Notes under the pieces: model-generated
What the model was told of the DNA's origin: nothing
Databases searched by the model: none
What the model saw: only the letters and a program-made list of their open reading frames with translations
Translations under genes and position numbers: made by a program
Source of the DNA: a virus
Direction: 5' to 3' (one strand)
Virus record (IMG/VR): IMGVR_UViG_3300046000_003154
Location: 1 to 64,000 of that record
Length of the DNA: 64,000 nucleotides
Shown: positions 23,376 to 34,205 of the stretch, one piece after another
Layout of the letters: each line of letters opens with the position of its first letter
Position numbering within the stretch: the stretch's first letter is position 1

Positions 23376-23657
23376 CCATAATTAAACATTGGTGTAAATG
23401 TGCATACTTGGTATAGGTCTAGAACTATATGTAAACAAGAGGAACACTCGGCTCAGAAAGGCAGATGAGAGTATGTTTAATTATGGTATAAGGTGATTCA
23501 TCCCACCAGTTATTCAAAGGCATGGAGTAATTCCCAGAAGTATGAATAACGTTGAGAGATAATATTACTCAATGAATAATCTGGAGGATGGTCGGTTCGA
23601 TTTCCGACACCAGAGATATGAAATTTCCCCTTACGAAGTTTCATATTGATAAATTTT

Positions 23658-23728
23658 GGGATCGTAATTCAATGATAGAATAGTCGGCTTTTAACCGATT
23701 TACGAGAGTTTGATTCTCTCCGGTCCTA
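23658..23728 (+). tRNA. tRNA-Lys (UUU)
   Basis: hand-folded: loop ctTTTaa, T arm gagag-tttgatt-ctctc, CCA encoded; acceptor has two G-U pairs. Confidence 0.5.
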
Positions 23729-23738
23729 CCAGAATTGT

Positions 23739-23810
23739 GGGTTAGTAGCTTAATGGTAAAGCAGTGAACTCATAATTCATTGAGTGTAGGTTCAATTCCT
23801 ACCTAACCCA
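23739..23810 (+). tRNA. tRNA-Met/Ile2-type (CAU)
   Basis: acceptor gggttag/ctaaccc, loop ctCATaa, T-loop ggttcaattcc, CCA encoded. Confidence 0.65.
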
Positions 23811-24080
23811 CCATAAATCGGGTAACGTCATGTTATCTGTTAATCCTTAGAATAAGTCTAAGGCGTGTTAATCGGATAATCACCAGATTGTCTTTCGATA
23901 TCTACGTTAAAGATATGGCTAAAGATCGTAATGCTAAATATTTTGTAAGAAAAAGCTGACCCCTAGAAATAGGACAGGCATTGACTAGGTTACTAAGGTC
24001 GAGATATCTGTCTCTGAGACTCCGAATGTGGTAGAATTCCTAGCAAGTCATATAAGTCGCCCTGAGATATGACAACTATT

Positions 24081-24155
24081 TGGTCTTAAAGTGTTCATGG
24101 ACGCACACAACACTGTCAATGTTGAAGAGTGGGGATCGTTACCCCCTAAGACCGC
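24081..24155 (+). tRNA. tRNA-Asp (GUC), imperfect T stem
   Basis: acceptor tggtctt/aagaccg, anticodon stem caaca/tgttg, loop ctGTCaa. Confidence 0.4.
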
Positions 24156-24310
24156 CAATATATACTGCGGGTAGTGTAGCAACAGTTCTGTCTCATAAGC
24201 ACGAACCATCGGAGGTGCAAGTCCTTCACCCGCATCCATTTTAGGATTCATTCAGCACATAAATACGGCATTGTATAAAAGCGAATCCTGTTGATTAATA
24301 AAGGTATATT

Positions 24311-25165
24311 ATGACAATTTATGGAATGACAACATCAAGAGTTTCCCAAAGGTTTACTAAGTTAGCTATTGATTCTTTTTTTGAGAATACTAAATTTAAA
24401 CCCAAAGATCTTTTCATATTAGTTGACAATGATAATTCAATTGATTTTAAATTGGATAATAGAGTATTACATATTAGAAATGACACCCCACAGTATTTTG
24501 CTGTTAATGCTAATAAAGTGTTAAAGTTTGCTATAGAGAATAAAGCAGATTTAGTGTTGATGAATAATGATATAGTTCTAACCCCTAATTGGTTGGACGC
24601 ATTAGAGAAGTATGACAACAAGATTACAGTCCCTAGTTGTAATGAGCATATCGAAATGAGTCTTGGTGGACTTACTTTGAAACCAGCAATGGAATTAGAT
24701 GAAGTGTTAAGTTATCGTAAAGAGTTGGATGAAATTTCGGATACTATTATAAGTTATCCAGAGAATAGAAATAAATTTGTATCTTTATTCAGAATGGGCT
24801 TGTATGTAATGAGGATTCCGTATACAATATCATCTATCGTAGGTTTAATGGATGAAGAGTATGGTCGTGGTGGTGGAGAGGACATTGATTACAGGATTAG
24901 AACTTGGAAAGCAGGTTTTGATACTTCTGTAGTTTTGGATTCTTTTATTATTCATTTTATGGGTAAATCAACATGGCGATCAGGAGAGTCTAGTTTTGAT
25001 ACTAGAAAGTGTGAAGAACAATATCAAAAACACTTCTTGGAAAAATGGGGCGAGAATATCACCAGAGTATTTTTAGAGGGTGATGTAGGAACCATGAGAA
25101 GATTTGGTGTTGAGAATTTGATGATGAATAGAGAGTATAAGAAAGTTTTAGATATTATTCCGTAG
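24311..25165 (+). CDS. putative glycosyltransferase-like protein
   Basis: 284-aa ORF; LVLMNNDIVLTPNWL (DxD-like). Confidence 0.3.
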   Translation: MTIYGMTTSRVSQRFTKLAIDSFFENTKFKPKDLFILVDNDNSIDFKLDNRVLHIRNDTPQYFAVNANKVLKFAIENKADLVLMNNDIVLTPNWLDALEKYDNKITVPSCNEHIEMSLGGLTLKPAMELDEVLSYRKELDEISDTIISYPENRNKFVSLFRMGLYVMRIPYTISSIVGLMDEEYGRGGGEDIDYRIRTWKAGFDTSVVLDSFIIHFMGKSTWRSGESSFDTRKCEEQYQKHFLEKWGENITRVFLEGDVGTMRRFGVENLMMNREYKKVLDIIP

Positions 25166-25234
25166 AATTCAAGCATGGTGCATGGACCTGACTGTTAATC
25201 AGAGATTAGCTGAGATCGTTACTCAGATACGGAG
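25159..25234 (+). tRNA. tRNA-Asn (GUU), overlaps the stop codon of the upstream CDS
   Basis: anticodon arm cctga-ctGTTaa-tcaga, T arm ctgag-atcgtta-ctcag, CCA encoded; acceptor has one mismatch. Confidence 0.4.
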
Positions 25235-25366
25235 CCAAATAGAATCAAGTGGAAAGCAAGAGCCACAAAGTAAATGCTGATCATCATGGCAATTCGGTGA
25301 TCTATGCAAAGCCATAGCATAGTGGCAGCGGGGTAAGAGTCCTAACTTAGAGTTGTCAGATATTTT

Positions 25367-25447
25367 GGGTGTATGTCCGAGAGGCCGAAGGAGTCTGACT
25401 GTAAATCAGATCGTAACAGCACGGTGGTTCGAATCCATCTGCACCCA
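25367..25447 (+). tRNA. tRNA-Tyr (GUA), long variable arm
   Basis: acceptor gggtgta/tgcaccc, loop ctGTAaa, T-loop ggttcgaatcc, CCA encoded. Confidence 0.65.
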
Positions 25448-25457
25448 CCAAGAATTA

Positions 25458-25529
25458 GGTGATATGACGTAGACGGATGCGTATTGGTTTCATAAGCCAA
25501 AGAGATTGGTTCGATACCAATTATCACCA
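25458..25529 (+). tRNA. tRNA-Met/Ile2-type (CAU), second copy
   Basis: acceptor ggtgata/tatcacc, loop ttCATaa, T-loop ggttcgatacc, CCA encoded. Confidence 0.65.
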
Positions 25530-25727
25530 CCAGTTACGCAGGATCAGTTCGAACGGAATTGATTTCATGAGTCAATTCATCCTGCGACCATTTATGGGAC
25601 TAAAAATATAATTCAGACATGAATTTACACAGCAATAAAAAAAGTCCCACCATTTTAGGATAGGTTCTGCAAAAAACTCAGCAAAACTTTTTGGTTGTCT
25701 TGCGACAAAAACTATCCTGTTGTATTC

Positions 25728-25798
25728 GCTCTTATAGTATATTGGTATTACAATTGCCTTGTAAGCATTTGAATGAGGTTCGATTCCTTGTTGGAGCA
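25728..25798 (+). tRNA. tRNA-Thr (UGU)
   Basis: acceptor gctctta/ttggagc (one mismatch), loop ctTGTaa, T-loop ggttcgattcc, CCA encoded. Confidence 0.45.
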
Positions 25799-25850
25799 CC
25801 AAAAAACTCTCCCTAACATATGGAGTATAATAGGATAAGTTATATGTTTT

Positions 25851-25931
25851 GCGAGTGTGGTGGAACGGTATACACACAAGACTTAAAATCTTGCGCCGAA
25901 AGGCTTGCGGGTTCGAATCCCGCCTCTCGCA
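25851..25931 (+). tRNA. tRNA-Leu (UAA), long variable arm
   Basis: anticodon arm caaga-ctTAAaa-tcttg, variable arm cgccgaaaggc, T arm gcggg-ttcgaat-cccgc, CCA encoded. Confidence 0.55.
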
Positions 25932-25936
25932 CCAAA

Positions 25937-26012
25937 GCATTTGTGGACAATTTGGTAAAGTCGCTTGTCTTAGAAACAAGAAATTCTGTGGGTTCGACTC
26001 CCACCAAATGCA
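25937..26012 (+). tRNA. tRNA with anticodon UAG (Leu by anticodon, but class-I length)
   Basis: acceptor gcatttg/caaatgc perfect, anticodon arm cttgt-ctTAGaa-acaag, T arm gtggg-ttcgact-cccac, only 7-nt variable region. Confidence 0.5.
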
Positions 26013-26023
26013 CCAGATAAATA

Positions 26024-26098
26024 CCGTGATTAGGCTAGTCTGATCAAGTCACTCGATTTGGGGTCGAGATATCGCAAGTTTGAATCTTGCATCACGGA
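26024..26098 (+). tRNA. tRNA-Pro (UGG)
   Basis: acceptor ccgtgat/atcacgg, anticodon arm ctcga-ttTGGgg-tcgag (G37), T arm gcaag-tttgaat-cttgc, CCA encoded. Confidence 0.6.
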
Positions 26099-26120
26099 CC
26101 ATTATTATTAAAAGGATGTT

Positions 26121-26474
26121 ATGAAAAAGGAATTCATATTCGACGCAAAGGTTATCAATGTAGTCGATGGAGATACTATTGATGTTGTAATTGATCTAGG
26201 ATTCTCTATGACAACCCAACAAAGACTTAGATTGTATGGGATTGATACTATGGAGACTAATTCTAAAGATCCATTATTAAAAGAAAATGGTTTATCTGCT
26301 AAGAAGTTTGTTAGTGATTCTGTGTTAAATCAAGATGTAACTATTCACACATTCAAACCAGATAAGTACGGAAGATATCTAGCAAACGTTTATTTTAAAG
26401 ATATGTTTGTTAATGAAGAATTGAAACGTAGAGGATTAGCTAAAGAATATTTTGGAGGATCAAAAAATGTCTGA
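26121..26474 (+). CDS. staphylococcal nuclease (SNase)-like thermonuclease
   Basis: VVDGDTIDV ... RLYGIDTMET matches the SNase DGDT / R-GIDAPE motifs. Confidence 0.6.
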   Translation: MKKEFIFDAKVINVVDGDTIDVVIDLGFSMTTQQRLRLYGIDTMETNSKDPLLKENGLSAKKFVSDSVLNQDVTIHTFKPDKYGRYLANVYFKDMFVNEELKRRGLAKEYFGGSKNV

Positions 26475-26643
26475 CGGTGGAAAAGGTAGTAAAGCAAGAC
26501 CATATAGCGTAACACATGATGAATATAGTAATCGTTGGGATATGATTTTTGGTCGAGATTTAAACAAAGAAGAAGTTAAAGAAGAAAATAAAAAACAAGA
26601 AGAAACTGTAGAAGTAATCGGTAGACTTCTTGTAGATCAATAA
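26467..26643 (+). CDS. small basic/acidic protein
   Basis: ORF trimmed to ATG 26467 adjacent to the upstream stop. Confidence 0.3.
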   Translation: MSDGGKGSKARPYSVTHDEYSNRWDMIFGRDLNKEEVKEENKKQEETVEVIGRLLVDQ

Positions 26644-26644
26644 T

Positions 26645-26717
26645 GGGCTGATAGTGATATTGGGATACACGAGGCACTTGCAATGCTTAGATGGGAGTTC
26701 GATCCTCCCTCGGTCCA
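26645..26717 (+). tRNA. tRNA-Ala (UGC)
   Basis: acceptor gggctga/tcggtcc (G3-U70 wobble present), anticodon arm aggca-ctTGCaa-tgctt, T arm gggag-ttcgatc-ctccc, CCA encoded. Confidence 0.55.
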
Positions 26718-26934
26718 CCATTAAGGAAACATATGAACGAACCAGAAGTCCCTCAAAAAACTTATGAGATAAAACTTAGAATTTTGGGAAATGAAGTCTT
26801 TGCAATTTCATTATCGTCTTCAAATGATGATAAATGGACAGCAATAGGACTTTTCACAGTGTTTTCTATACTTACCGTTATCGGAGCGTATGGAGATAAG
26901 ATTGTGAGTTTGTTTAAAATGTTAGTAGGTTAAT

Positions 26935-27008
26935 ACGTTGGTAGCATAACTGAATAATGCCCTAGACTACGAATCTAGAAGATTGGAGTTTGAATCCCCA
27001 CTAACGTA
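26935..27008 (+). tRNA. tRNA-Arg (ACG)
   Basis: D stem gcat/atgc, anticodon arm ctaga-ctACGaa-tctag, CCA encoded. Confidence 0.6.
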
Positions 27009-27016
27009 CCAAGAAT

Positions 27017-27088
27017 GGCTAGGGAGCATATTGAACATGCAATCGACTGATAATCGATAGATAATAGGTTTAATTCCTATACTAGCTA
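27017..27088 (+). tRNA. tRNA-Ile (GAU)
   Basis: D stem gcat/atgc, anticodon arm atcga-ctGATaa-tcgat, T arm atagg-tttaatt-cctat, CCA encoded. Confidence 0.6.
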
Positions 27089-27097
27089 CCAAAATTT

Positions 27098-27169
27098 GTA
27101 TCGTTAGTGTAAATGGCAACACACCAATCTCCAAAATTGGAATAGAGGATTCGAGTTCTTCACGGTACG
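27098..27169 (+). tRNA. tRNA-Trp (CCA)
   Basis: acceptor gtatcgt/acggtac, D stem gtgt/acac, anticodon arm ccaat-ctCCAaa-attgg. Confidence 0.6.
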
Positions 27170-27212
27170 CCCTAGAGTCAATGTCAAGACTCGAACTATT
27201 ATATATAGAAAT

Positions 27213-27869
27213 ATGGAGAAATTTATGTTCTATACAATATATAAAATAACAAATCAAATTAATGGCAAGCACTACATAGGTAGTCATAAGACCAGAGATT
27301 TGAATGACAACTATATGGGTTCTGGAAAGTACCTAAAACATGCCATAGGAAAATATGGTGAACAAAATTTTACCAAAGAAATTATGTTTGTTTTTGATAC
27401 ACCAGAAGAGATGTATCTAAAAGAAGGTGAAATTGTTAATGAAGATTTTCTAACAACAGAGAACACTTATAATTTAAAAACAGGTGGTTTTGGTGGTTTT
27501 GATTATATCAACTCAAATAATATGAGAAGTTATTCGAAAGAAAGAGCTAATAAAATTAGCTCAAAATTAAAAGAATATCATGCTGATCCTATAATAAAAG
27601 AAAAAAATAATAAATTGTTAAATGAAAATAGAATTAAGGCAACATTAGAAATAAAACGTAAATATCCAAATGGTACTTTTGTTAATAAAAAGCATACAGA
27701 TGAAACTAAAGAAAAAATTGGAAAAACTAATACAATTAAACAGAATGGTGAAAAAAATTCTCAATATGGTACAATATGGATAACTGATGGAACAAATAAT
27801 TTAAAAATAAAAAAAGATTGTGATATTCCAATTGGTTGGAAGTTAGGAAGAGTTATTAAAAAACAATAG
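27213..27869 (+). CDS. GIY-YIG homing endonuclease
   Basis: MFYTIYKITNQINGKHYIGSHKT ... YMGSGKYLKHAIGKYG (GIY-YIG); Lys-rich C-terminal DNA-binding region. Confidence 0.75.
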   Translation: MEKFMFYTIYKITNQINGKHYIGSHKTRDLNDNYMGSGKYLKHAIGKYGEQNFTKEIMFVFDTPEEMYLKEGEIVNEDFLTTENTYNLKTGGFGGFDYINSNNMRSYSKERANKISSKLKEYHADPIIKEKNNKLLNENRIKATLEIKRKYPNGTFVNKKHTDETKEKIGKTNTIKQNGEKNSQYGTIWITDGTNNLKIKKDCDIPIGWKLGRVIKKQ

Positions 27870-27877
27870 GAGTTATA

Positions 27878-28348
27878 ATGAAAAAGATAGATTTAGATGA
27901 AGTGAAAAAGTACATTGATTCTCAGACACCAGAGACTAAAATTTATCTTGGTTGTGACTCTGAAAGATTCAAAATTGATGGTCAGTGGTACGCTGATTAC
28001 ATTGTGGCTATTGTTGTTCACATTAATGGAAATTCTGGATGTAAAGTGTTTGGTGAAGTAACTCGTGAAAGAGACTACGAACAAAAACGCAATCGTCCCA
28101 GATATCGTCTTATGACAGAAGTGTATAAAGCTGCTGATATGTATTTAAAACTTTCAGAAATAGTTCCAGATCGTGACATTGAAGTTCATCTTGACTTAAA
28201 TCCAGATGAAGTGTATGGATCATCTTGTGCTGTTCAGGAAGCTATGGGATACATCAAAGGAATGTGTAATGTTGTTCCTATGATTAAACCAAATGCTCCT
28301 GCTGCTAGTTACTGTGCTGATAGATTTAAATCTCTAAAAATTGCATGA
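27878..28348 (+). CDS. hypothetical protein (possible RNase H-like fold)
   Basis: 156-aa ORF; IYLGCDSERF ... IVAIVVH ... HLDLNPDE pattern. Confidence 0.3.
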   Translation: MKKIDLDEVKKYIDSQTPETKIYLGCDSERFKIDGQWYADYIVAIVVHINGNSGCKVFGEVTRERDYEQKRNRPRYRLMTEVYKAADMYLKLSEIVPDRDIEVHLDLNPDEVYGSSCAVQEAMGYIKGMCNVVPMIKPNAPAASYCADRFKSLKIA

Positions 28349-28518
28349 TAAATGGATTTTCTAAGAGGAATACAAATTTTCAGAAAAGGTGATAGAGTGA
28401 TACATGAACAAACAGGAATTTCTTACATAGTTTCTTATGTTCATGTTAGAGGATATGAGTTGATGTTGAACATGGAAGATGGTTCAAAAATTAATTCAAA
28501 AGAAGTTTATAAAATCTC

Positions 28519-28547
28519 TTGACTTTGGAATTAAACTCTTGTATAAT
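28519..28547 (+). promoter_or_regulatory. strong sigma70-like promoter (TTGACT-N17-TGTATAAT)
   Basis: TTGACT 28519-28524, extended -10 TGTATAAT 28540-28547; precedes a 315-nt structured leader before CDS 28869. Confidence 0.55.
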
Positions 28548-28868
28548 TCATTCTGTTGAGAGATAGAGATAAAAAAGGATAGGTACTGCAACAATCATAA
28601 ACTACTATGACTAGTTTTTACAATAGAGGACAACAAACTCCTTTATATAAAAACAAACTGCGAAAAACTCGTAAAGCAGTTAAAAAAGATGAGAACAACT
28701 ATCCTGTTGTAATTTAGAGTGGTTCCAGCAAAAATAATACATTCAACTTGTAATTGAAACCGTAAAAACCCACTCTGTTGAATAAAGGCTAATTTCAGCA
28801 AAAACTAAAAAAGTTAAACTTGAAATTTAAACAAAAAATTAACCTGTTAAAAAGAAAGAAGATATATT

Positions 28869-30290
28869 ATGAATACATTTGTAAATGCAGTAGCAAACCA
28901 AGAAGCACGTACTGATAATGGTATGAAGGCACGTAAAAACACAGCTAATGCTTGTGTTGATCTTTTCTTTAAGATTGGTGCTTCTCGTGGTAAAGACGTA
29001 ACTAAGGACTTTATTGCAGCTTTCGTTGAAGATAAAGACCTAGCATTGCGTATTGCTGGATGGGTACGTGATGTTCGTGGTGGTGCTGGTGAACGTCAAA
29101 TCTTCAAGGATATCCTAAAGTATCTAGAAAAGAATGACATTGAATCAGCAAAAGCATTGGTTGCTAAAGTGCCAGAAATTGGTCGTTGGGATGATATCTT
29201 TGTGTTTGAAGACAAGGAATTGAAAAGCTTTGCCTACACTATGCTTGGGGATGCTCTACGTGCTAAGAATGGTCTAGCAGCAAAATGGACTCCACGTAAA
29301 GGACCAGTTGCAGCAGAAGTTCGTCAATTTTTTGGAATGTCACCAAAGTTTTATCGTAAATCTTTAGTTGAAATGACTAATGTTGTCGAAACTCAAATGT
29401 GTGCTAAAGAATGGGATGGGATTAATTTCTCACACGTTCCTTCTGTAGCTGCTGCACGTTACAAGAAAGCATTCAATCGTAATACTACAAAGTATGCCGA
29501 ATATGTTGCTAAACTTGTAAAAGGTGATGATGCGTCAGTGAAAGTTAATGCTGCTGCTGTGTTTCCTTATGATGTTTTGAAGGGTCGTATCACTTCTTAT
29601 GGTGTTGTTAGTGTTGATAAAACTGAGAGAGATCTTATCCAAAAACAATGGGAAGCACTACCTAATTATGTTGGGGATGCTAACATTCTTCCTTTGGTTG
29701 ATGTTTCTGGTTCAATGACTTGTTCTGCTGGAAAGAACACTACTGTTACTTGTCTAGATGTTGCTGTATCACTAGGACTATATCTAGCTGATAAGAATAC
29801 TGGTAAATTCAAGGACACTTTCTTGACTTTCTCAGGATCACCAGAATTGATTACTTTAAAAGGTAATATTATTGAAAAGATTGATCAAATGGTTAAATCT
29901 ACTTGGGCGATGAATACAGACCTTAACAAAGCGTTTGTAAAAATTCTTAACGTTGCTGTAAAAGGTAATGTTCCCCAAGAAGAAATGCCAAAGATGCTTT
30001 TGATTCTTTCTGATATGCAATTTGACGGTTGTGTTGATCATGATGACTCTGCTATTGAAATGATTCGTCGTAGTTATGAAGTAGCTGGTTATGAAATGCC
30101 AAAGGTAGTGTTCTGGAACTTAAATGCTCACGATAATGTGCCAGTTAAGTTTAATGAATCAGGAACTGCATTGGTATCTGGTTTCTCACCAGCAATCGTA
30201 AAACCATTGCTATGTGGAGACATGGAGGAATTCACTCCAGAAGCGATCATGCTAAAGACTGTGATGCAAGATCGTTATGCGTTAGTTTAA
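28869..30290 (+). CDS. vWA/MIDAS-domain protein with helical N-terminal domain (Ro60/TROVE-like or DUF2828-like)
   Basis: VDVSGSM (DxSxS MIDAS) near residue 278 followed by vWA-like beta-alpha pattern; about 270-aa helical N-terminal region. Confidence 0.45.
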   Translation: MNTFVNAVANQEARTDNGMKARKNTANACVDLFFKIGASRGKDVTKDFIAAFVEDKDLALRIAGWVRDVRGGAGERQIFKDILKYLEKNDIESAKALVAKVPEIGRWDDIFVFEDKELKSFAYTMLGDALRAKNGLAAKWTPRKGPVAAEVRQFFGMSPKFYRKSLVEMTNVVETQMCAKEWDGINFSHVPSVAAARYKKAFNRNTTKYAEYVAKLVKGDDASVKVNAAAVFPYDVLKGRITSYGVVSVDKTERDLIQKQWEALPNYVGDANILPLVDVSGSMTCSAGKNTTVTCLDVAVSLGLYLADKNTGKFKDTFLTFSGSPELITLKGNIIEKIDQMVKSTWAMNTDLNKAFVKILNVAVKGNVPQEEMPKMLLILSDMQFDGCVDHDDSAIEMIRRSYEVAGYEMPKVVFWNLNAHDNVPVKFNESGTALVSGFSPAIVKPLLCGDMEEFTPEAIMLKTVMQDRYALV

Positions 30291-30424
30291 GACAGTCTGG
30301 GGATTCTTAGGAGTCCTCATTTTGAAGTGTATTATTACGAAAATATTATAAACTAGGAAGGTTCGACCCGACTTATTATAATATTTGGTAGTATGTTGCA
30401 ACGGTAATATACTTCAAAATGATT

Positions 30425-30495
30425 GCAGGGTTAGTTTAATGGTAAAATTAGAGTCTTCCAAACTCAAGTCAAGGGTTCGATTCCCTTATCCTGCT
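30425..30495 (+). tRNA. tRNA-Gly (UCC)
   Basis: acceptor gcagggt/atcctgc, loop ctTCCaa, T arm aaggg-ttcgatt-ccctt, CCA encoded. Confidence 0.55.
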
Positions 30496-30507
30496 CCAAA
30501 ATTTTAT

Positions 30508-30581
30508 GGTGTCTATAGTGTAGTGATTCTGCATTTATGTCTGTGAAACATAAGGTATGGGTTTAATCCCCATTAGACACC
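30508..30581 (+). tRNA. tRNA-His (GUG) with encoded G-1
   Basis: extra 5' G pairing with C73; acceptor gtgtcta/tagacac; anticodon arm tatgt-ctGTGaa-acata; CCA encoded. Confidence 0.65.
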
Positions 30582-30603
30582 CCAATATATAAGAAAGAAT
30601 TTT

Positions 30604-31149
30604 ATGTCTAGCGTATGGATCACATCAGATACACATTTTGGTCATCATGGAGTTTGTAAATTTCTTACAGATGAAGGTGATAAACTACGTCCTTGGGATA
30701 ATCCTGATGATATGGATGAACATATGGTTAAAGTCTGGAATGAAACAGTTAAACCAAGTGATAAGGTATATCATCTTGGTGACGTTGTGATGAATCGTAA
30801 AGCTCTCAAAACACTTTATAGACTTAATGGTGACAAGGTTCTTATTAAAGGGAATCATGATATATTTAAACTTGAAGAATATACACCTCATTTTAGAGAT
30901 ATTCGTGCGTATCATGTGATGAACAATATAATGCTTAGTCACATTCCAGTACACCCAAATAGTAAGGGGAGATTTAATGGTAATATTCATGGTCATCTTC
31001 ATTCAAATAAAGTAATGAAAGATAATGGATATGGGAAAGACGTTATTGATCCTTGGTATCATTGCGTATGTGTTGAGCAGACTGATTTTAAACCCATACT
31101 TTTTGATGATGTTTTGAAACGCATGAAAGATAGTGCATCGGTAATTTAA
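30604..31149 (+). CDS. calcineurin-like metallophosphoesterase
   Basis: ITSDTHFGHH ... YHLGDVV ... KGNHD phosphoesterase motifs. Confidence 0.55.
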   Translation: MSSVWITSDTHFGHHGVCKFLTDEGDKLRPWDNPDDMDEHMVKVWNETVKPSDKVYHLGDVVMNRKALKTLYRLNGDKVLIKGNHDIFKLEEYTPHFRDIRAYHVMNNIMLSHIPVHPNSKGRFNGNIHGHLHSNKVMKDNGYGKDVIDPWYHCVCVEQTDFKPILFDDVLKRMKDSASVI

Positions 31150-31205
31150 TGGTAGAATGTCGCTTTTACACGGCGAATACGGGAGTTCGATTCTCCAACG
31201 ATGTA
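31135..31205 (+). tRNA. tRNA-Val (UAC), 5' end overlaps last codons of upstream CDS
   Basis: anticodon arm tcgct-ttTACac-ggcga, T arm gggag-ttcgatt-ctcc, CCA encoded; acceptor 6/7 pairs. Confidence 0.45.
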
Positions 31206-31216
31206 CCAAAAAACAC

Positions 31217-31245
31217 TTGTACGATAACATAAGTAGTGTTATAAT
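31217..31245 (+). promoter_or_regulatory. sigma70-like promoter for tRNA-Phe/Arg (TTGTAC-N17-TGtTATAAT)
   Basis: TTGTAC 31217-31222, TATAAT 31240-31245 with TG at 31237-31238. Confidence 0.45.
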
Positions 31246-31261
31246 ACATTTATGGTATTAA

Positions 31262-31334
31262 GCAACTTTAGCTGATGTGGTCATAGCGGTGGTCTGAAGA
31301 ACCATTGAAGTAGGTTCGATTCCTACAGGTTGCA
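31262..31334 (+). tRNA. tRNA-Phe (GAA)
   Basis: acceptor gcaactt/aggttgc, D stem gctg/tagc, anticodon arm gtggt-ctGAAga-accat, T arm gtagg-ttcgatt-cctac, CCA encoded. Confidence 0.65.
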
Positions 31335-31345
31335 CCAAAGAATTT

Positions 31346-31417
31346 CTGGCGTTAGTTCAATGGATAGAACAGTAGCCTTCTAAGCTATTAATAGGGGTTC
31401 GATTCCCTTACGCCGGA
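31346..31417 (+). tRNA. tRNA-Arg (UCU)
   Basis: D stem gttc/gaac, anticodon arm gtagc-ctTCTaa-gctat, T-loop ggttcgattcc, CCA encoded. Confidence 0.6.
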
Positions 31418-31440
31418 CCAAAATTGATAGGACATGCATT

Positions 31441-32517
31441 ATGGTAACGGAAAATCTCAATTATATTATTGCTGGACAGGAACCAAAATTTGACCATGAT
31501 ATGTCAAAGATTGAATTGTCACAAGCACTCAACTGGTATTCACAGAACAAGACCTCAAAGGATTCTGTAAAATACATTCACACATTCTTCAAAAAAGTTC
31601 ACAAATTAGACTTAAATTTAGAACATCACAAAAATCAACCAACAACATTCGGATACGTCTGTAAGATCGTATTAAATGGTGGATATTTACCACCAGAAAA
31701 TAGAAGTTGGTTTAATGAACAAGTAGACGAAGTATTAAAAAACTTCAATACAAAAAAGAAAAAAACAATACAACCAACAACAGAAATAGAAAAACCAAAC
31801 ATACAAGACAGGATTCAAGAAAGTGTTTCGGATATTCTTGGTCAGTTTGAAGGTTCTGTTGATGATTATATTCTAAGTTCTTTCAAGACTGTTCCTGTAC
31901 CTAAAGCTATTCTTCATGATAAGGCTAAAGGGGTTCATGCTCGTAAAATTATTGATTGGGCTAAAAAACGTAAAACAGAATTTGAAGAAGTCTACACAAC
32001 AGAAGACAAATATATCATCGAAGGATATTCAAATTTTTCTAGACTTCAAATCCGTAGGTTAATAGCGTATTTTCAATTAATTATCCAAGAGTGTTCTGAT
32101 ATCATTGGAACATCTGTCAAAACACGCAAACCAAAAAAGAAAAAAGAAAAAACACAAGATCAAATTGTGTCTAAGATTAAGGTGTGTAAAGAGTTTCCAG
32201 AATTAAATTTAAAATCTCTTCCACCAAAAGATATTCTTGGTGCTTCACAGGTTTGGGTGTATAATACAAAATATAAGAAATTAGGAGTTTATAATGCGAG
32301 TATTGGTGGACTATATGTTATTGGTGCTTCTATCACTAATTTTGACGAAACAAAGTCAACGCAAAAAATTGTAAGAAAACCTCTATTAACTCTCCCAGAA
32401 GTTTTAAAGAGTAGTAAGACAGCTTTGAAAGGGTTTATGACTACTATTAAATCAACTGAGAATCCATTATCTGGTCGTTTAGGGGAAGACACCGTAATAC
32501 TGAAAGTATTTAAATGA
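31441..32517 (+). CDS. hypothetical Lys-rich protein (358 aa)
   Basis: long ORF, poly-K tracts, no recognisable motif. Confidence 0.45.
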   Translation: MVTENLNYIIAGQEPKFDHDMSKIELSQALNWYSQNKTSKDSVKYIHTFFKKVHKLDLNLEHHKNQPTTFGYVCKIVLNGGYLPPENRSWFNEQVDEVLKNFNTKKKKTIQPTTEIEKPNIQDRIQESVSDILGQFEGSVDDYILSSFKTVPVPKAILHDKAKGVHARKIIDWAKKRKTEFEEVYTTEDKYIIEGYSNFSRLQIRRLIAYFQLIIQECSDIIGTSVKTRKPKKKKEKTQDQIVSKIKVCKEFPELNLKSLPPKDILGASQVWVYNTKYKKLGVYNASIGGLYVIGASITNFDETKSTQKIVRKPLLTLPEVLKSSKTALKGFMTTIKSTENPLSGRLGEDTVILKVFK

Positions 32518-33341
32518 AAATCGCATATTGTTCGGATTTACATTTAGAATTTAAAACATTGGAATTAACAAACACAGAAAATGCTGATGTTTTGGTGTTA
32601 GCTGGTGATATTCTAAATGCACAAGATCTTTATAAACACAAACAACCCGGAATGTTACCACCTTTACCTTGGGGTGCTGGTCAAGCTTCTGCATATAGAT
32701 TTCGTGAATTTCTGGAACGTGTTAATAGTGAATTCAAAAACATTATTGTAATTGCAGGAAATCATGAGTTTTATAGTGGTAAATGGGTGAAGAGTTTAAA
32801 ACATTTGCGTGATGAATATTCAAATTACTCCAACATACATTTCTTAGAACGTGATATAATATCTATCAATGATGTTACATTTGTTGGTGGGTCTTTGTGG
32901 ACGGATATGAATAGATTTGATCCACTAACTCTACATGCAACAAGAGATATGATGCAAGATTATAATATGATACGACATGATGATCTTGAATATAGAAAGT
33001 TAAAACCAGCAGATACAGCAAAACGTCATAAAGAAACATTGGGTTACTTTAAAGAAGTTGTGAAAGATAAAGAAAAGGTTGTTATTGTATCACACCATGC
33101 TCCATCTGTGCTTAGTGTTAATGAGATGTATAGGGGGCATTTTGCAATGAATGGTGCTTATTACAGTGACTTATCAGAATTTATTTTAGACAATCCACAA
33201 ATTAAACTCTGGGTTCATGGACATATGCATGATGATATTGATTATACATTAGGGGAAACTAGGGTTGTTTGTAATCCTAGAGGATACGCTGGATACGAAA
33301 CTCGTGCCAACACTTTTAATCTTAGATACATAGAAGTATAA
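32514..33341 (+). CDS. calcineurin-like metallophosphoesterase
   Basis: CSDLHLEF ... LVLAGDIL ... IAGNHEF ... GHMH. Confidence 0.55.
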   Translation: MKIAYCSDLHLEFKTLELTNTENADVLVLAGDILNAQDLYKHKQPGMLPPLPWGAGQASAYRFREFLERVNSEFKNIIVIAGNHEFYSGKWVKSLKHLRDEYSNYSNIHFLERDIISINDVTFVGGSLWTDMNRFDPLTLHATRDMMQDYNMIRHDDLEYRKLKPADTAKRHKETLGYFKEVVKDKEKVVIVSHHAPSVLSVNEMYRGHFAMNGAYYSDLSEFILDNPQIKLWVHGHMHDDIDYTLGETRVVCNPRGYAGYETRANTFNLRYIEV

Positions 33342-33356
33342 CAAAAGGAATATATA

Positions 33357-34205
33357 ATGATCATCTTTGATTATAATCAGGTAGCAATTTCAAACCTAAT
33401 GGAACAAATCGGATCTTCAAAAGAAGCAGTTGATGAAGATCTAGTTCGCCATATGATTTTAAATACTTTGCGTAAACATATTAAAAAATATAAACAGTCT
33501 CATGGTCCAGAAGTAGTAATTGCTTGTGATAGTAGACATTATTGGCGCAAGGAAATTTTTGCACCATATAAAGCAAATAGGAAGAAAAATCGTGACACAT
33601 CTGGTCATGATTGGTCTACGATTTTTCATTGCCTAGCATTGATTAAAGACGAGTTGAAAGAACATTCTCCATATAAAGTGTTGGAAATAGATACTTGCGA
33701 GGCTGATGATATTATTGGTGTTCTAACACAAAAATATGCACCATCAGAAAAAATAATTATTCTTTCAAGCGATAAAGATTTCGCGCAACTACAAAAGTAT
33801 CAAAATGTAAGTCAACATTCTCCTATTATGAAAAAGGATATTGTTGAAAAGATGCCAGATTTACAACTAAAACAATTAATTATTCGTGGTGATAAGGATG
33901 ATGGTATTCCAAATATTCTTTCACCAGATGATGTGTTTATTTCTGGTGGAAGACAAAAACCAATCATGGAAGCAAAATTATCTGTCTGGATGAATCAGAA
34001 ACCAGAAGATTTCTGTACTGGTGAAATGTTAAGAAATTATTATAGAAATCAAGCATTAATTGATCTTACGAAAATTCCAGAAGATATTGTTGGTAAAATT
34101 TTAGAGTCATACGAAACCACTAAACCAAAAAACAAATCACACTTTATGAATTATATGATAGAACATAGACTTAAAAATCTTATTGAGTGTCTTGACGAAT
34201 TTTGA
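33357..34205 (+). CDS. rnh: RNase H / 5'-3' flap exonuclease (T4 rnh homolog)
   Basis: MIIFDYNQVAIS ... VIACDS ... YKANRK ... IDTCEADDIIGVL ... ILSSDKDFAQL ... KGDKDDGIP aligns with T4 RNase H along its length (recalled from memory). Confidence 0.8.
   Translation: MIIFDYNQVAISNLMEQIGSSKEAVDEDLVRHMILNTLRKHIKKYKQSHGPEVVIACDSRHYWRKEIFAPYKANRKKNRDTSGHDWSTIFHCLALIKDELKEHSPYKVLEIDTCEADDIIGVLTQKYAPSEKIIILSSDKDFAQLQKYQNVSQHSPIMKKDIVEKMPDLQLKQLIIRGDKDDGIPNILSPDDVFISGGRQKPIMEAKLSVWMNQKPEDFCTGEMLRNYYRNQALIDLTKIPEDIVGKILESYETTKPKNKSHFMNYMIEHRLKNLIECLDEF

What the first reader, a model, noticed from the sequence alone, without database searches (positions are those of the whole stretch)
28519..30424. vWA/MIDAS protein (possibly Ro60/TROVE-like) flanked by long structured non-coding RNAs
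The 473-aa protein has a ~270-aa helical N-terminal domain and a C-terminal vWA domain with DxSxS MIDAS (VDVSGSM). That is the Ro60 (Rsr) architecture, though phage DUF2828-type vWA proteins are an alternative. It is preceded by a strong promoter (28519-28547) and a 315-nt untranslated structured leader with hairpins ggatag...ctatcc and agagtgg...ccactct. Between its stop and tRNA-Gly lies a ~120-nt element (30300-30424). There, a long terminal stem (tgaagtgtattatta / taatatacttcaa) and an inner palindrome (aaatattataa / ttataatattt) enclose a T-loop-like ggttcgaccc. This resembles Y-RNA/YrlA-type RNAs, which have a Ro-binding stem plus a tRNA-like module and sit next to rsr genes in bacteria and some phages.
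Basis: inference. Interest (0 to 1): 0.65.

Follow-up and report, generated by a model that had tools for sequence, protein, structure and literature searches.

The report
Phage Ro60-like gene with companion RNAs
A phage gene for a Ro60-like RNA-binding protein sits inside a tRNA gene array and is preceded by three copies of a conserved, apparently undescribed small-RNA scaffold that also lies beside this gene family in several unrelated phage lineages, making these RNAs the likely partners ("Y RNAs") of the protein.

Summary
ORF 28869-30290 encodes a 473-aa DUF2828 + DUF7788 (vWA, MIDAS) protein. It has no TROVE sequence match, but its predicted fold matches Ro60 end to end.

The 321-nt "leader" is not a plain UTR. 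It holds three tandem copies (28573-28711, 28712-28782, 28786-28845) of a conserved RNA scaffold I call R1: an 8-bp terminal stem, a UCAGCAA motif, a variable middle, an A-run and a CCUGUUG end. Covariation over 122 distinct sequences supports the structure.

In related phages R1 lies directly before this gene and in tRNA-sized slots between tRNAs, always on the tRNA strand. It can carry YrlA-order tRNA-like cores. The same scaffold flanks homologous genes in Mycobacterium, Listeria and Campylobacter phages, with weaker matches in Staphylococcus and others. No Rfam family reaches its threshold.

The downstream element (30318-30421) is a conserved plus-strand RNA hairpin tied to this gene's 3' end. 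Its "T-loop" interior is not conserved, and it is not YrlA-like.

Best reading: a Ro60/Y-RNA-type ribonucleoprotein module with a new RNA partner family; RNA binding is inferred, not shown. R1 also closely resembles Dictyostelium Class I RNAs.

The parts
28519..28547 (+). Sigma-70-type promoter-like site, TTGACT-17-TATAAT
   Evidence: 11 of 12 matches, one of the two best sites in 19000-33500. Function is inferred; the count of such sites in the region is not above chance.
28573..28711 (+). E1: long-form copy of the R1 scaffold. Closing stem AGGAUAG/CUAUCCU, then GUACUGCAA, ending ...CUAUCCUGUUGUA. A diverged 'class D' member.
   Evidence: The minimum-energy fold contains the closing stem, z = -5.5. 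Its ends and 3' region align with class D long forms that lie upstream of the same gene in relatives. The covariance model does not detect it because of the ~100-nt insert, so the assignment rests on alignment and inspection.
28712..28782 (+). E2: canonical short R1 element. It has an 8-bp closing stem, UCCAGCAA, a 5-bp stem with the 7-nt anticodon-like loop CUUGUAA, an A-run, and CUCUGUUG.
   Evidence: 88.9 bits, E = 4e-18 with model R1. It was part of the seed alignment, so it matches by construction. The closing stem appears in the minimum-energy fold.
28786..28845 (+). E3: degenerate short R1 copy ending 23 nt before the ATG
   Evidence: 36.5 bits, E = 3e-6, model positions 5-65. There is one mismatch in the closing stem and no thermodynamic support, z = -0.25. 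Its position matches the R1 copy that ends within 40 nt of the ATG in 53 of 77 related loci.
28869..30290 (+). Ro60-like protein gene: N-terminal helical DUF2828 domain plus C-terminal DUF7788/vWA domain with a MIDAS site
   Evidence: Pfam PF11443 1.9e-22 and PF25043 9e-49, with no TROVE hit. PHROG 850 'RNA-binding protein', 2.5e-141. Model pLDDT 67.6. Fold matches to Ro60. Homologs in 705 phage records.
30300..30317 (+). G+C-rich hairpin (GGGAUUC-UUAG-GAGUCCU) followed by AUUUU. It is terminator-like and is the probable 3' end or stabiliser of the mRNA.
   Evidence: conserved in position in relatives, mostly with GNRA-type loops. The terminator scan does not call it, because only 4 T follow.
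30318..30421 (+). R2: long A+U-rich RNA hairpin, about 20 bp (CAUUUUGAAGUGUAUUAUU / GGUAAUAUACUUCAAAAUG), with a 66-nt non-conserved interior. It ends 3 nt before tRNA-Gly.
   Evidence: In 27 distinct stems, 98.6% of cells are paired and 9 of 16 pairs show changes on both sides. Non-Watson-Crick pairs are 57 G.U on the + strand against 1 A.C. It starts 25-37 nt after the stop in about 40 of 78 relatives. In an R1-centred sample, 6 of 9 such hairpins follow this gene. No Rfam match.
30425..30584 (+). tRNA-Gly(UCC) 30425-30498 and tRNA-His(GUG) 30509-30584, the continuation of the tRNA array
25653..25724 (+). Additional R1 copy in the tRNA array, ending 3 nt before tRNA-Thr
   Evidence: 44.8 bits, E = 4e-8.
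24239..24295 (+). Additional short R1 copy in the tRNA array, just after a weak tRNA-like stretch at 24166-24235
   Evidence: 37.1 bits, E = 2.5e-6. The tRNA-like stretch scores 19.5 bits, E = 5.4.
27878..28348 (+). Linked gene: PF04308 'RNaseH_like' (DUF458) protein, the most consistently co-located coding gene
   Evidence: Pfam 3.8e-16. A homolog lies within 3 kb of the Ro-like gene in 48 of 80 related loci, directly downstream of it in KVP40, and also in BUCT-ZZ01.

Best explanation
This is a Ro60/Y-RNA-type ribonucleoprotein module carried inside the tRNA gene array of an uncultured T4-like phage.

Shown:
(1) The ORF encodes a DUF2828 + vWA/MIDAS protein whose predicted fold is that of Ro60.
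(2) The region between the promoter-like site and the ATG is three tandem copies of a conserved structured RNA scaffold, R1. Its parts are A-G, a 6-8-bp terminal stem, the motif (U/A)(U/A)CAGCAA after the 5' strand, a variable middle, an A-run, the 3' strand, and CUGU(UG).
(3) The scaffold's structure is supported by extensive compensatory change, and every copy lies on the tRNA/gene strand.
(4) In relatives, R1 sits immediately before this gene and in tRNA-sized slots 1-4 nt from flanking tRNAs.
(5) The variable middle can be a simple or anticodon-like hairpin, a T-loop-like hairpin, a normal-order tRNA-like core, or a YrlA-order (T-arm, stem, D-arm) core.
(6) The same scaffold, often in tandem, flanks homologous genes in distant phage lineages.

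Inferred:
- The array is transcribed from the promoter-like site at 28519-28547 and/or by read-through from upstream tRNAs.
- The tRNA-processing enzymes (RNase P at the 5' end of each downstream tRNA, and 3' trimming of each upstream tRNA) release the R1 units as small stable RNAs.
- The Ro60-like ring binds the conserved stem plus the CAGCAA / A-run / CUGU module, as Ro60 binds the conserved stem of Y RNAs, while the variable middle provides tRNA mimicry or recruits other factors.
- The copy abutting the ribosome-binding site could also allow autoregulation.
- By analogy with Rsr-YrlA-PNPase, with the Thermus phage Ro60 homolog and its Yrl RNAs, and with Bas63 gp130, the ribonucleoprotein probably acts on tRNA or other non-coding RNA surveillance or decay, or counters a host defence.
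- The downstream G+C hairpin plus the long R2 hairpin most likely mark and stabilise the mRNA 3' end and the mRNA/tRNA processing junction. They are not a Y RNA.
For: Protein:
- Pfam and PHROG assignments.
- MIDAS residues are invariant.
- Depositors annotate homologs as 'Ro-like' or 'Ro sixty-related' on HHpred evidence.

R1 is a real RNA:
- 8 of 15 pairs show compensatory change and none is broken in the 11-sequence seed.
- In 122 distinct sequences, 96.4% of cells are paired, 350 cells changed on both sides, and the covariation score is 0.421 against 0.109 in shuffles and at most 0.063 in slid controls.
- All 167 hits in the gene-centred loci are on the + strand. In the R1-centred sample all 2956 tRNA/R1 strand comparisons agree.

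Position:
- 53 of 77 loci have R1 ending within 40 nt of the ATG, and most of the rest have one about 140 nt upstream.
- This holds even in Synechococcus phage BUCT-ZZ01, at 48% protein identity.

tRNA-like and YrlA-like cargo:
- Classes of long forms are listed.
- Sub-threshold but significant YrlA matches lie inside R1 scaffolds: L001 794-904 just upstream of the gene (37.5 bits, E = 5e-7 in a local scan), L120 (48.9 bits) and L089 (32.4 bits).
- 8 loci have a scaffold with a YrlA-order T-arm within 320 nt of the ATG.

Cross-lineage linkage:
- Whirlwind has three tandem scaffolds right after its gene, the middle one holding a YrlA-order core.
- Listeria phage LP-124 has three tandem scaffolds right before its gene.
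- Campylobacter phage CP81 has a 29.7-bit hit in the gap before its gene. Weaker hits lie in the flanking gaps of the Staphylococcus 6ec, Bacillus Nate and Pseudoalteromonas J2-1 genes, and in the tRNA array downstream of the EC6 gene.
- All 18 hits in these distant loci are on the gene's strand.

Literature:
- Y RNAs are encoded next to Ro60 genes in bacteria and phages (PMC4201824).
- The Thermus phage phiLo Ro60 homolog binds two upstream Yrl RNAs and host PNPase (PMC12135203).
- The Ro60-like gp130 of phage Bas63, directly upstream of that phage's tRNAs, counters the Ppl defence, and the authors guessed that some of the 'tRNAs' are Y RNAs (PMC11482910).
Against: - No binding or expression data exist. 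The protein-RNA link rests on genomic linkage alone.
- In a sample centred on R1 rather than on the gene, most copies precede tRNAs (78 of 150) or other ORFs (14 of 150, including a metallophosphoesterase). Only 10 of 150 precede the Ro-like gene. In the T4-like clade, R1 is therefore a general tRNA-array element.
- Several homolog-bearing phages show no R1 hit next to the gene: KVP40, S13, GAP32, ME3 and Ochrobactrum OC.
- The window's own copies carry no T-arm or D-arm module, and nothing in the window matches YrlA or Y_RNA.
- E3 is degenerate, and E2 has little thermodynamic support, z = -1.6.
- There is no TROVE match at sequence level, and the structural model is only of moderate confidence, pLDDT 67.6.
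- Alignment A4 was fitted to the model, which inflates the percentage paired. Compensatory changes are less affected by this.
Confidence: 0.6

Rival explanations
1. R1 and R2 are punctuation or processing modules of the polycistronic tRNA-array transcript. Under this view they are structured spacers that guide RNase P, RNase E or RNase III cleavage, or that protect the newly made 5' and 3' ends of tRNAs and embedded mRNAs. They would have no specific relation to the Ro60-like protein, and their linkage to the gene would only reflect the gene living in the array.
For: - In the R1-centred sample, 78 of 150 copies are followed by a tRNA within 15 nt, and 14 of 150 by other ORFs, including metallophosphoesterase genes.
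- Copies sit 1-4 nt after and about 3 nt before tRNAs.
- R2 is a ~20-bp duplex, which is RNase III-like, and it ends 0-6 nt before the next tRNA.
Against: - The scaffold also flanks the homologous gene where there is no array around it: Staphylococcus 6ec, Whirlwind (one tRNA 1.2 kb away) and Campylobacter CP81 (after a terminator).
- A pure spacer role does not explain an invariant single-stranded CAGCAA motif, or YrlA-order tRNA-like cargo.
Confidence: 0.2
2. R1-scaffold RNAs are tRNA or anticodon-loop mimics that act as decoys or sponges for host tRNA-targeting defences (anticodon nucleases) or tRNA-modifying enzymes. They would act on their own rather than as partners of the Ro60-like protein.
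For: - The best-scoring short forms carry a canonical 5-bp stem with a 7-nt loop: CUUGUAA, CUUUUAA or CUUCUAA. These are the loops of tRNA-Thr(UGU), tRNA-Lys(UUU) and tRNA-Arg(UCU).
- Class A long forms are near-complete tRNA-like bodies with UCU or UUU anticodon loops but only a 3-bp acceptor and no CCA end.
- That anticodon nucleases such as PrrC target tRNA-Lys(UUU) is my own knowledge.
Against: - Across the family the middle hairpin varies widely in sequence, and many loops are not anticodon-like.
- What is conserved is the scaffold, not the cargo.
- This rival is compatible with, rather than exclusive of, Ro-like binding.
Confidence: 0.1
3. The flanks are ordinary untranslated sequence: a 5' UTR with incidental hairpins and a terminator region. 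Alternatively, they are decaying pseudo-tRNAs without function.
For: - There is no Rfam match in the window.
- E3 and E2 have weak folding z-scores.
- The R2 interior is not conserved.
- The G+C hairpin is terminator-like.
Against: - Strong compensatory covariation and sequence-invariant motifs across hundreds of copies and several phage families.
- The 57-to-1 G.U asymmetry in R2 shows selection on the RNA itself.
Confidence: 0.05

Closest known systems
Bacterial and mycobacteriophage Ro60 (Rsr) with YrlA-type Y RNAs (Rfam RF02553; PMC4201824)
   Same: - A ring-plus-vWA/MIDAS protein fold.
- One or more small structured RNAs encoded right next to the gene, on the same strand.
- A terminal stem formed by the 5' and 3' ends, plus, in many relatives, a permuted tRNA-like core (T-arm, stem, D-arm).
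- Association with tRNA and RNA-repair genes.
   Different: - The protein is DUF2828, not a Pfam TROVE member.
- The RNA's protein-proximal module is a single 6-8-bp stem with a CAGCAA motif and a CUGU end, instead of YrlA's three-helix stem.
- No copy reaches the YrlA gathering score of 69 bits. The best is 48.9 bits in a relative, and there is no hit at all in the window.
- The cargo is often just a hairpin.
- Copies are numerous and interspersed in tRNA arrays.
Thermus phage phiLo Ro60 homolog with Yrl1/Yrl2 (PDB 9l5y, 9kop; PMC12135203)
   Same: - It is phage-encoded.
- Its candidate Y-like RNAs lie immediately upstream of the gene.
   Different: - The phiLo protein is annotated as TROVE and shares only 15-19% identity with the window protein.
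- Yrl1 and Yrl2 were defined by a CGAA motif in a bulge, not by the CAGCAA scaffold.
- That gene is not described as lying in a tRNA array.
Bas63 gp130, a Ro60-like counter to the Ppl defence (PhageMaP preprint, PMC11482910)
   Same: - A phage protein with a Ro60-like structure directly upstream of a tRNA stretch.
- Presumably the Felixounavirus member of this family. This is inferred from phage EC6, whose 39%-identical homolog lies 165 nt before its tRNA array.
- The authors speculated that Y RNAs hide among the tRNAs.
   Different: - No RNA partner was identified there.
- Here a concrete scaffold is defined, but it is only weakly detected in EC6 (21 bits).
- I did not verify homology to Bas63 gp130 directly.
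Dictyostelid Class I RNAs (Rfam RF01414; PMC7919456)
   Same: - About 60 nt long, with roughly 30-40% G+C.
- A short terminal stem with compensatory changes.
- Start (A)AG and end CUGU, with the C pairing the conserved 5' G.
- An 11-nt motif CCUUACAGCAA directly after the 5' strand, against UUCAGCAA, UUACAGCAA or UAACAGCAA in R1.
- The rest of the RNA is variable.
- RF01414 gives sub-threshold hits of 23-36 bits, and all 7 fall on R1 copies.
   Different: - Class I RNAs are eukaryotic genes with their own upstream promoter element (DUSE), and are reported to be unique to Dictyostelia.
- Their known direct binder is the RRM protein Rnp1A/CIBP.
- No R1 copy reaches the RF01414 gathering score of 41.5 bits, and the window has no RF01414 hit.
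- Homology against convergence is untested.
Phage T4 species 1 and 2 RNAs (rnaC, rnaD)
   Same: Small stable non-tRNA RNAs encoded inside a T4-type tRNA cluster and processed with the tRNAs. The cluster also holds a GIY-YIG homing endonuclease, as the window does.
   Different: There is no sequence or structure match to model R1, best 12 bits. T4 has no DUF2828 gene in the stretch I examined.

Membership tests
Ro60 / TROVE proteins (Pfam PF05731) | Significant match to the TROVE domain profile, or sequence similarity to solved Ro60 proteins | tested here: not met
   There is no TROVE hit at E <= 1 and no PDB sequence hit for the single sequence. A profile of 30 homologs gives only E = 1.6 to the phiLo TROVE protein, over the MIDAS segment alone.
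Ro60 / TROVE proteins (Pfam PF05731) | Architecture: an alpha-helical repeat domain closed by a C-terminal vWA domain, similar in fold to Ro60 over both domains | tested here: met
   [not shown]
Ro60 / TROVE proteins (Pfam PF05731) | MIDAS motif (DxSxS ... T ... D) in the vWA domain | tested here: met
   D278, S280, S282, T350 and D382 are invariant in 30 homologs.
Ro60 / TROVE proteins (Pfam PF05731) | Binds Y RNA and misfolded non-coding RNA | not testable with these tools
   Only genomic linkage to structured RNAs is available.
DUF2828 / DUF7788 phage 'Ro-like RNA-binding protein' family (PF11443 + PF25043; PHROG 850) | Profile matches above the curated cut-offs over both domains | tested here: met
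   PF25043 scores 166 bits against a cut-off of 27.1. PF11443 scores 80 bits against a cut-off of 29. PHROG 850 gives 2.5e-141 over the full length.
YrlA Y RNA-like (Rfam RF02553) | Covariance-model score at or above the gathering score of 69 bits | tested here: not met
   Neither flank of the gene gives a hit at E <= 10. The only YrlA row in 19000-33000 is a 19.5-bit chance match over tRNA-Lys/Met. Relatives' R1 scaffolds reach 32-49 bits, and Whirlwind reaches 38 bits. These are significant E-values but lie below the gathering score.
YrlA Y RNA-like (Rfam RF02553) | Permuted tRNA-like core (T-arm, acceptor-like stem, D-arm) enclosed by a terminal stem | tested here: not met
   This is absent from E1, E2, E3 and R2 in the window. 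It is present in the same scaffold in relatives, as classes B and C, and in Whirlwind.
YrlA Y RNA-like (Rfam RF02553) | Encoded adjacent to, and on the same strand as, a Ro60-type gene | tested here: met
Dictyostelid Class I RNA (Rfam RF01414) | Score at or above the gathering score of 41.5 bits | tested here: not met
   The window gives no hit. Relatives reach 23-36 bits, and all 7 hits fall on R1 copies.
Dictyostelid Class I RNA (Rfam RF01414) | Terminal stem closed by a conserved G-C pair, (A)AG start, CUGU end, and an 11-nt ...ACAGCAA motif after the 5' strand; about 60 nt with a variable remainder | tested here: inconclusive
   All of these features are present in R1 in slightly different form: UAG start, CUGUUG end, and U(U/A)CAGCAA (compared with PMC7919456). 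The Dictyostelium promoter element does not apply to a phage, and common descent is untested.
tRNA (Rfam RF00005 / ARAGORN) | Cloverleaf detected by a tRNA model | tested here: not met
   No tRNA call falls on E1-E3 or R2. Some class A relatives score 28-30 bits.
Intrinsic (Rho-independent) terminator | G+C-rich hairpin followed by a U-tract | tested here: inconclusive
   Hairpin 30300-30317 has 7 pairs, but only AUUUU follows, so it fails the scan's rule of at least 5 T in 8 bases. The U-tract also forms the base of R2.

The most novel reading that the evidence does not exclude
The R1 scaffold (terminal stem...ACAGCAA motif, variable middle, CUGU end) would be the phage counterpart of the Class I RNAs of dictyostelid social amoebae, which are reported to be unique to Dictyostelia. 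Both would be the Y-RNA-like ligands of DUF2828-type Ro60-like proteins. That protein family also occurs in plants and in mimivirus-like sequences.

If so, an abundant, developmentally important eukaryotic RNA class of unknown mechanism would gain a candidate protein partner and an evolutionary origin. [quoted passage not shown] A very large family of phage proteins would at the same time gain its RNA cofactor.
Probability: 0.3. Interest if true: 0.9.

Novelty: new variant of a known kind. Interest (0 to 1): 0.78.

Why it matters
Ro60-Y RNA particles are conserved from bacteria to humans, yet their partners in most phages are unknown. The DUF2828 'Ro-like' family is very common: I found homologs in 705 phage genome records, including Felix O1-like, KVP40-like, Listeria, Staphylococcus, Campylobacter and Mycobacterium phages. 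A preprint reports that a Ro60-like protein of phage Bas63, probably a member of this family, defeats a bacterial defence system. No RNA cofactor has been described for the family.

A sequence-defined, covariation-supported scaffold next to these genes gives concrete molecules for binding, structural and knockout experiments. It also explains many 'empty' slots in phage tRNA arrays. It shows a modular way of displaying tRNA-like, anticodon-like or simple hairpin cargo on one protein-binding handle. The resemblance to Dictyostelium Class I RNAs, if it reflects homology, would link a phage system to an unexplained eukaryotic RNA class.

Tried and rejected
- **TROVE at sequence level.** Pfam at E <= 1, phmmer and a 30-sequence profile against PDB all failed. 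Only fold comparison shows the relation.
- **Rfam.** Scans of both flanks, and of 19000-33000, at E <= 10 found no Y_RNA, YrlA or other family on the flanking elements.
- **Nucleotide relatives among cultured phages.** There are none; the best is 67% identity over 12% of the query.
- **T4 species 1 and 2 RNAs as homologs of R1.** Rejected, best score 12 bits.
- **R2 as a DNA palindrome, protein operator or bidirectional terminator.** Rejected, because 57 of 66 non-Watson-Crick positions are G.U on the + strand only.
- **R2 as a promoter.** In short-loop relatives TTGAAG-17-CAAAAT can be read, but the spacing is destroyed wherever the interior is long. Set aside on inspection.
- **R2 interior as a tRNA-like module.** It is not conserved (3-89 nt, unrelated sequences), and there is no tRNA or YrlA hit on it in the window or in the nine relatives I scanned.
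- **R1 tandem arrays as CRISPR-like repeats or RNA anti-CRISPRs.** Rejected. Pairing is within each unit, not across junctions, and single copies occur between tRNAs.
- **A CAGCA/UGUUG pairing, as the YrlA model would align it.** It cannot be tested because both sides are invariant, and it conflicts with the covariation-supported closing stem.
- **The inverted repeat after tRNA-Glu (23368-23494).** Its folding is no better than shuffles, z = -0.1.
- **Things I could not obtain.** The AlphaFold-database fold library was not installed. I could not get the Avesson 2011 paper, the 2020 Ro60 review, or the Bas63 record; my accession guess was wrong.


Full report
**Setting.** The window carries an array of 22 co-oriented tRNA genes between about 20.2 and 31.4 kb: 21 by ARAGORN plus one more found by Rfam. 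Small ORFs lie among them. They include a staphylococcal-nuclease homolog, a SegE-like GIY-YIG endonuclease, a PF04308 'RNaseH_like' protein and two calcineurin-like phosphoesterases. The layout resembles the T4 tRNA cluster, which also holds a GIY-YIG gene (segB) and two small stable non-tRNA RNAs. No cultured phage is close at the nucleotide level. The nearest protein-level relatives are uncultured IMG/VR contigs and, at 44-48% identity, T4-like phages of Synechococcus, Citrobacter, Cronobacter and Vibrio.

**Checking the observation.** All stated features are present.
- The ORF at 28869-30290 encodes 473 aa and contains VDVSGSM.
- TTGACT-17-TATAAT at 28519-28547 matches 11 of 12 positions, although promoter-like sites as a class are not enriched in the region.
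- The 321-nt leader folds better than shuffled sequence, z = -3.4.
- The 134-nt downstream gap also folds better than shuffled sequence, z = -4.9.
- The named stems exist.

**The protein.** Pfam assigns DUF2828 (PF11443) to the N-terminal part and DUF7788 (PF25043, vWA-like) to the C-terminal part. There is no TROVE hit. PHROG 850, 'RNA-binding protein', matches over the full length. Sequence searches of the PDB find nothing useful.

So the protein has the Ro60 architecture but is not a Pfam TROVE member. It belongs to a large phage family found in 705 records. Some depositors already call it 'Ro-like', for example in Mycobacterium cluster L phages and in Ochrobactrum phage OC on HHpred evidence. 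Two published reports bear on function:
- LeBron gp53, annotated 'Ro-like RNA-binding protein', is toxic when overexpressed (PMC13148394).
- The Ro60-like gp130 of Bas63 lies directly upstream of that phage's tRNAs and counters the Ppl defence. The authors speculated that some annotated tRNAs are Y RNAs (PMC11482910).

I infer, but did not verify, that gp130 is the Felixounavirus member of this family. The basis is phage EC6, whose 39%-identical homolog lies 165 nt before its tRNA array.

**The upstream 'leader' is three copies of a conserved RNA scaffold (R1).** BLAST of the leader against 80 related loci showed that part of it recurs. It appears right before the homologous ATG and also elsewhere in those loci. 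The 'elsewhere' copies sit in tRNA-sized slots between tRNA genes.

An 11-sequence alignment gives this consensus: UUUUAGG-N-U-NNN, (G)UUCAGCAA, an A/U-rich linker, a 5-bp stem with a 7-nt loop, an A-run, then NNN-A-N-CCUGUUG. Of 15 predicted pairs, 8 show compensatory change and none is broken.

A covariance model built from this alignment finds 167 copies in the window and the related loci, all on the + strand. Over 122 distinct sequences:
- 96.4% of cells are paired;
- 350 cells are changed on both sides;
- the covariation score is 0.421, against 0.109 for shuffles and at most 0.063 for slid registers.

The alignment was fitted to the model, which inflates the percentage paired.

The window has four model hits: 24239-24295, 25653-25724 (3 nt before tRNA-Thr), 28712-28782 (E2, 89 bits) and 28786-28845 (E3, 36.5 bits, ending 23 nt before the ATG). 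It also has a long form, E1 (28573-28711). E1 has the scaffold's ends and a stable fold, z = -5.5, but the model misses it because of its large insert. E3 is degenerate and E2 has little thermodynamic support. For these two the evidence is comparative.

No Rfam family reaches its gathering score on these elements.

**Where R1 occurs.** In 53 of 77 gene-centred loci, a copy ends within 40 nt of the Ro-like ATG. Most of the other loci have one about 140 nt upstream. Tandem pairs and triplets are common. The arrangement persists in Synechococcus phage BUCT-ZZ01, at 48% protein identity.

For a sample not selected on the gene, I scanned IMG/VR for the 5' motif alone. That gave at least 120 loci, 95 of them with tRNAs (up to 38 each). 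Among 150 model hits in those loci, the next feature downstream was:
- a tRNA within 15 nt in 78 cases;
- another ORF in 14 cases, four of them the metallophosphoesterase that is also present in the window;
- the Ro-like gene in 10 cases.

All 2956 tRNA/R1 strand comparisons agreed. In this clade R1 is therefore a general, multi-copy component of tRNA arrays, and one preferred site is the leader of the Ro-like gene.

**R1 is a scaffold with exchangeable cargo.** The long forms (90-157 nt) keep the same ends but carry different middles:
- Class A: a near-complete tRNA-like body in normal order, with a D-like hairpin, a UCU or UUU anticodon arm and a T-arm, but only a 3-bp acceptor.
- Classes B and C: a T-arm, then a stem, then a D-arm. 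This is the permuted order that defines YrlA.
- Class D: a conserved GUGAGUUUCGAAUUCUCAC hairpin with a T-loop-like loop. This class includes the window's E1, in diverged form.

Rfam's YrlA model gives significant matches below its gathering score inside such scaffolds. They are L001 794-904, just upstream of the gene in the closest relative (37.5 bits, full-length model, E = 5e-7 in a local scan), L120 (48.9 bits) and L089 (32.4 bits). Under a strict T-arm criterion, 8 loci have a YrlA-order scaffold within 320 nt of the ATG.

The short forms keep only a hairpin. In the best-scoring group this hairpin is a canonical anticodon-type stem-loop, CUUGUAA, CUUUUAA or CUUCUAA. Across the family, however, it varies freely.

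**The scaffold follows the gene across phage lineages.** I ran the model without filters on loci around distant homologs (30-48% identity).
- **Mycobacterium phage Whirlwind.** There is a hit at 4181-4245 (32.4 bits) in the 381-nt gap after the gene. It lies next to a YrlA-like core at 4082-4146 (38.3 bits, E = 5e-7 in a local scan). Reading the sequence shows three tandem units, each with a GGAC... stem, ACAGCAA and a ...GUCCAGU(U) end. The middle unit holds the YrlA-order core, and a terminator follows.
- **Listeria phage LP-124.** Two hits (29 and 26 bits) and a third, long unit fill the 395-nt gap before the gene. A ROOL RNA and an RtcB ligase gene lie nearby.
- **Campylobacter phage CP81.** A 29.7-bit hit lies between a terminator and the gene.
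- **Weaker hits with the same features.** These lie in the flanking gaps of Staphylococcus 6ec (two), Bacillus Nate and Pseudoalteromonas J2-1, and in the EC6 tRNA array.
- **No hit.** KVP40, S13, GAP32, ME3 and Ochrobactrum OC show none next to the gene. In most of these the gene is tightly packed between ORFs.

All 18 hits in these distant loci are on the gene's strand. This recurrent adjacency is the main reason to regard the scaffold as the protein's RNA partner rather than as array punctuation only. It appears in siphoviruses and myoviruses of Actinobacteria, Firmicutes and Proteobacteria, and in some cases there is no tRNA array around the gene.

**The downstream element (R2).** After the stop codon comes a G+C hairpin (30300-30317) followed by AUUUU. 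The long hairpin 30318-30421 follows immediately, and its base includes that U-run. About 40 of 78 relatives have the same arrangement: a G+C hairpin, then CAUUUUGAAG.../...CUUCAAAAUG, ending 0-6 nt before the next tRNA.

In 27 distinct stems, 98.6% of cells pair and 9 of 16 pairs changed on both sides. I located the arms by their pairing, so the paired percentage is partly built in. Non-Watson-Crick positions are G.U on the + strand 57 times and A.C once. The element is therefore selected as an RNA on the gene's strand.

The interior ranges from a 3-nt loop to 89 nt of unrelated sequence. The window's GGTTCGACCC is not conserved, and no tRNA or YrlA signal was found on R2 in the window or in the nine relatives I scanned. 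In the R1-centred sample, 6 of 9 such hairpins start 28-34 nt after a Ro-like stop codon. R2 is thus specific to this gene's 3' end.

I read R2 as a 3'-end and junction element. It could be a stabiliser after RNase P cleavage or an RNase III site, or possibly the remnant stem of a lost module. This is inference.

**Mechanism and confidence.** The best-supported reading is a Ro60/Y-RNA-type module, at confidence 0.6. Under it, tRNA-processing enzymes release the R1 units from the array transcript. The Ro60-like ring binds their conserved stem/CAGCAA/CUGU handle, and the variable cargo provides tRNA mimicry or recruits other factors. The copy at the ribosome-binding site may permit autoregulation.

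Precedents are Rsr-YrlA-PNPase (PMC4201824), the phiLo Ro60 homolog with Yrl RNAs and PNPase (PMC12135203) and the anti-Ppl role of Bas63 gp130 (PMC11482910). The rivals are pure processing punctuation (0.2), free-standing tRNA or anticodon decoys (0.1) and ordinary UTR or pseudo-tRNA (0.05).

The PF04308 gene is the most consistently linked coding neighbour: 48 of 80 loci, and directly adjacent in KVP40. It may be part of the system.

**An unexpected resemblance.** Rfam's Dictyostelium Class I RNA model (RF01414) gives seven sub-threshold hits of 23-36 bits in the related loci, and every one lies on an R1 copy. The published description of Class I RNAs (PMC7919456) lists these features:
- about 60 nt and 32-41% G+C;
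- a terminal stem with compensatory changes;
- an AAG start and a CUGU end whose C pairs with the invariant 5' G;
- the 11-nt motif CCUUACAGCAA beside the 5' strand;
- a variable remainder.

This matches R1 feature for feature. That paper reports Class I RNAs as unique to Dictyostelia. [quoted passage not shown] DUF2828 proteins occur in plants and in mimivirus-like sequences. With these tools I could not test whether Dictyostelium has a DUF2828 protein. I give shared ancestry or a shared protein partner a probability of about 0.3.

**Novelty.** Ro60-Y RNA systems, including phage ones, are known, and the protein family is already labelled Ro-like. The following appear undescribed: the RNA scaffold itself, its modular cargo, its multi-copy placement in tRNA arrays, and its cross-lineage linkage to DUF2828 genes. 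No Rfam 15 family reaches its threshold on it, and my literature searches found nothing on it. I therefore class the finding as a new variant of a known kind.

Noticed in passing
window 27017-27088 (+) and 24166-24235 (+): Rfam's tRNA model finds a tRNA at 27017-27088 (46.8 bits) that ARAGORN missed. It also finds a weak tRNA-like stretch at 24166-24235 (19.5 bits, E = 5.4), immediately before the R1 copy at 24239.
   Followed up: no
window 27878-28348 (+); L081 4482-5012: A PF04308 'RNaseH_like' (DUF458) gene is the most consistent coding neighbour of the Ro-like gene. It is present in 48 of 80 related loci. In KVP40, where there is no tRNA array around the pair, it lies directly downstream of the Ro-like gene. 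It may be a functional partner.
   Followed up: partly
related loci, e.g. L015 348-400, L153 736-791 and 4439-4490, L120 4536-4591, L001 904-959: Sub-threshold hits of Rfam's Dictyostelium Class I RNA model (RF01414, 23-36 bits) fall 7 out of 7 on R1 copies. R1 shares that RNA class's stem, ACAGCAA motif, CUGU end, size and G+C content.
   Followed up: partly
L207 971-1522 (Listeria phage LP-124): A ROOL RNA match (RF03087, 87.4 bits against a gathering score of 99.1, E = 2e-16) lies between tRNAs about 1 kb upstream of the DUF2828 gene. An RtcB-like ligase gene lies 1.3 kb downstream of that gene.
   Followed up: no
window 30501-30515 / 30574-30588: The leader and trailer of tRNA-His pair with each other and so extend the acceptor stem. 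Relatives L029, L032, L034 and L042 have 23-25-bp leader-trailer stems around tRNA-His.
   Followed up: no
window 27213-27869 (+), 26121-26474 (+), 30604-31149 (+), 32514-33341 (+): A SegE-like GIY-YIG homing endonuclease, a staphylococcal-nuclease homolog and two calcineurin-like phosphoesterases are embedded in the tRNA array. In relatives, homologs of the 30604 phosphoesterase are themselves sometimes preceded by an R1 copy.
   Followed up: partly
window 23162-23237 (+): A strong terminator-like hairpin (14 pairs, followed by a T-run) comes directly before the other best promoter-like site in the region, TTGACA-17-TACAAT. This probably marks a transcription-unit boundary inside the tRNA array.
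   Followed up: no
L020 35-121, L053 1237-1310, L056 605-670: R2-like long A+U-rich hairpins (ATTTAWAAACACAT...) also abut tRNA-Asp, tRNA-Phe and tRNA-Met in some relatives. A looser form of this hairpin type is therefore not exclusive to the Ro-like gene.
   Followed up: no
L205 4539-4622, 5311-5494, 5938-6024 (Escherichia phage EC6): The unannotated tRNA array downstream of the Felix O1-type homolog contains odd tRNA-like matches: tRNA-Sec model at 30-39 bits, and permuted tmRNA at 32 bits. These could be non-canonical tRNA-like RNAs.
   Followed up: no
L212 889-1498 (Bacillus phage Nate); L215 1051-1489 (Pseudoalteromonas phage J2-1); L211 1080-1462 (Enterococcus phage VRE9_3): Unannotated or dubiously annotated gaps of about 380-610 nt lie directly upstream of the DUF2828 gene in these phages. 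Model R1 gives only weak hits there, and these gaps probably hold lineage-specific versions of the companion RNAs.
   Followed up: partly
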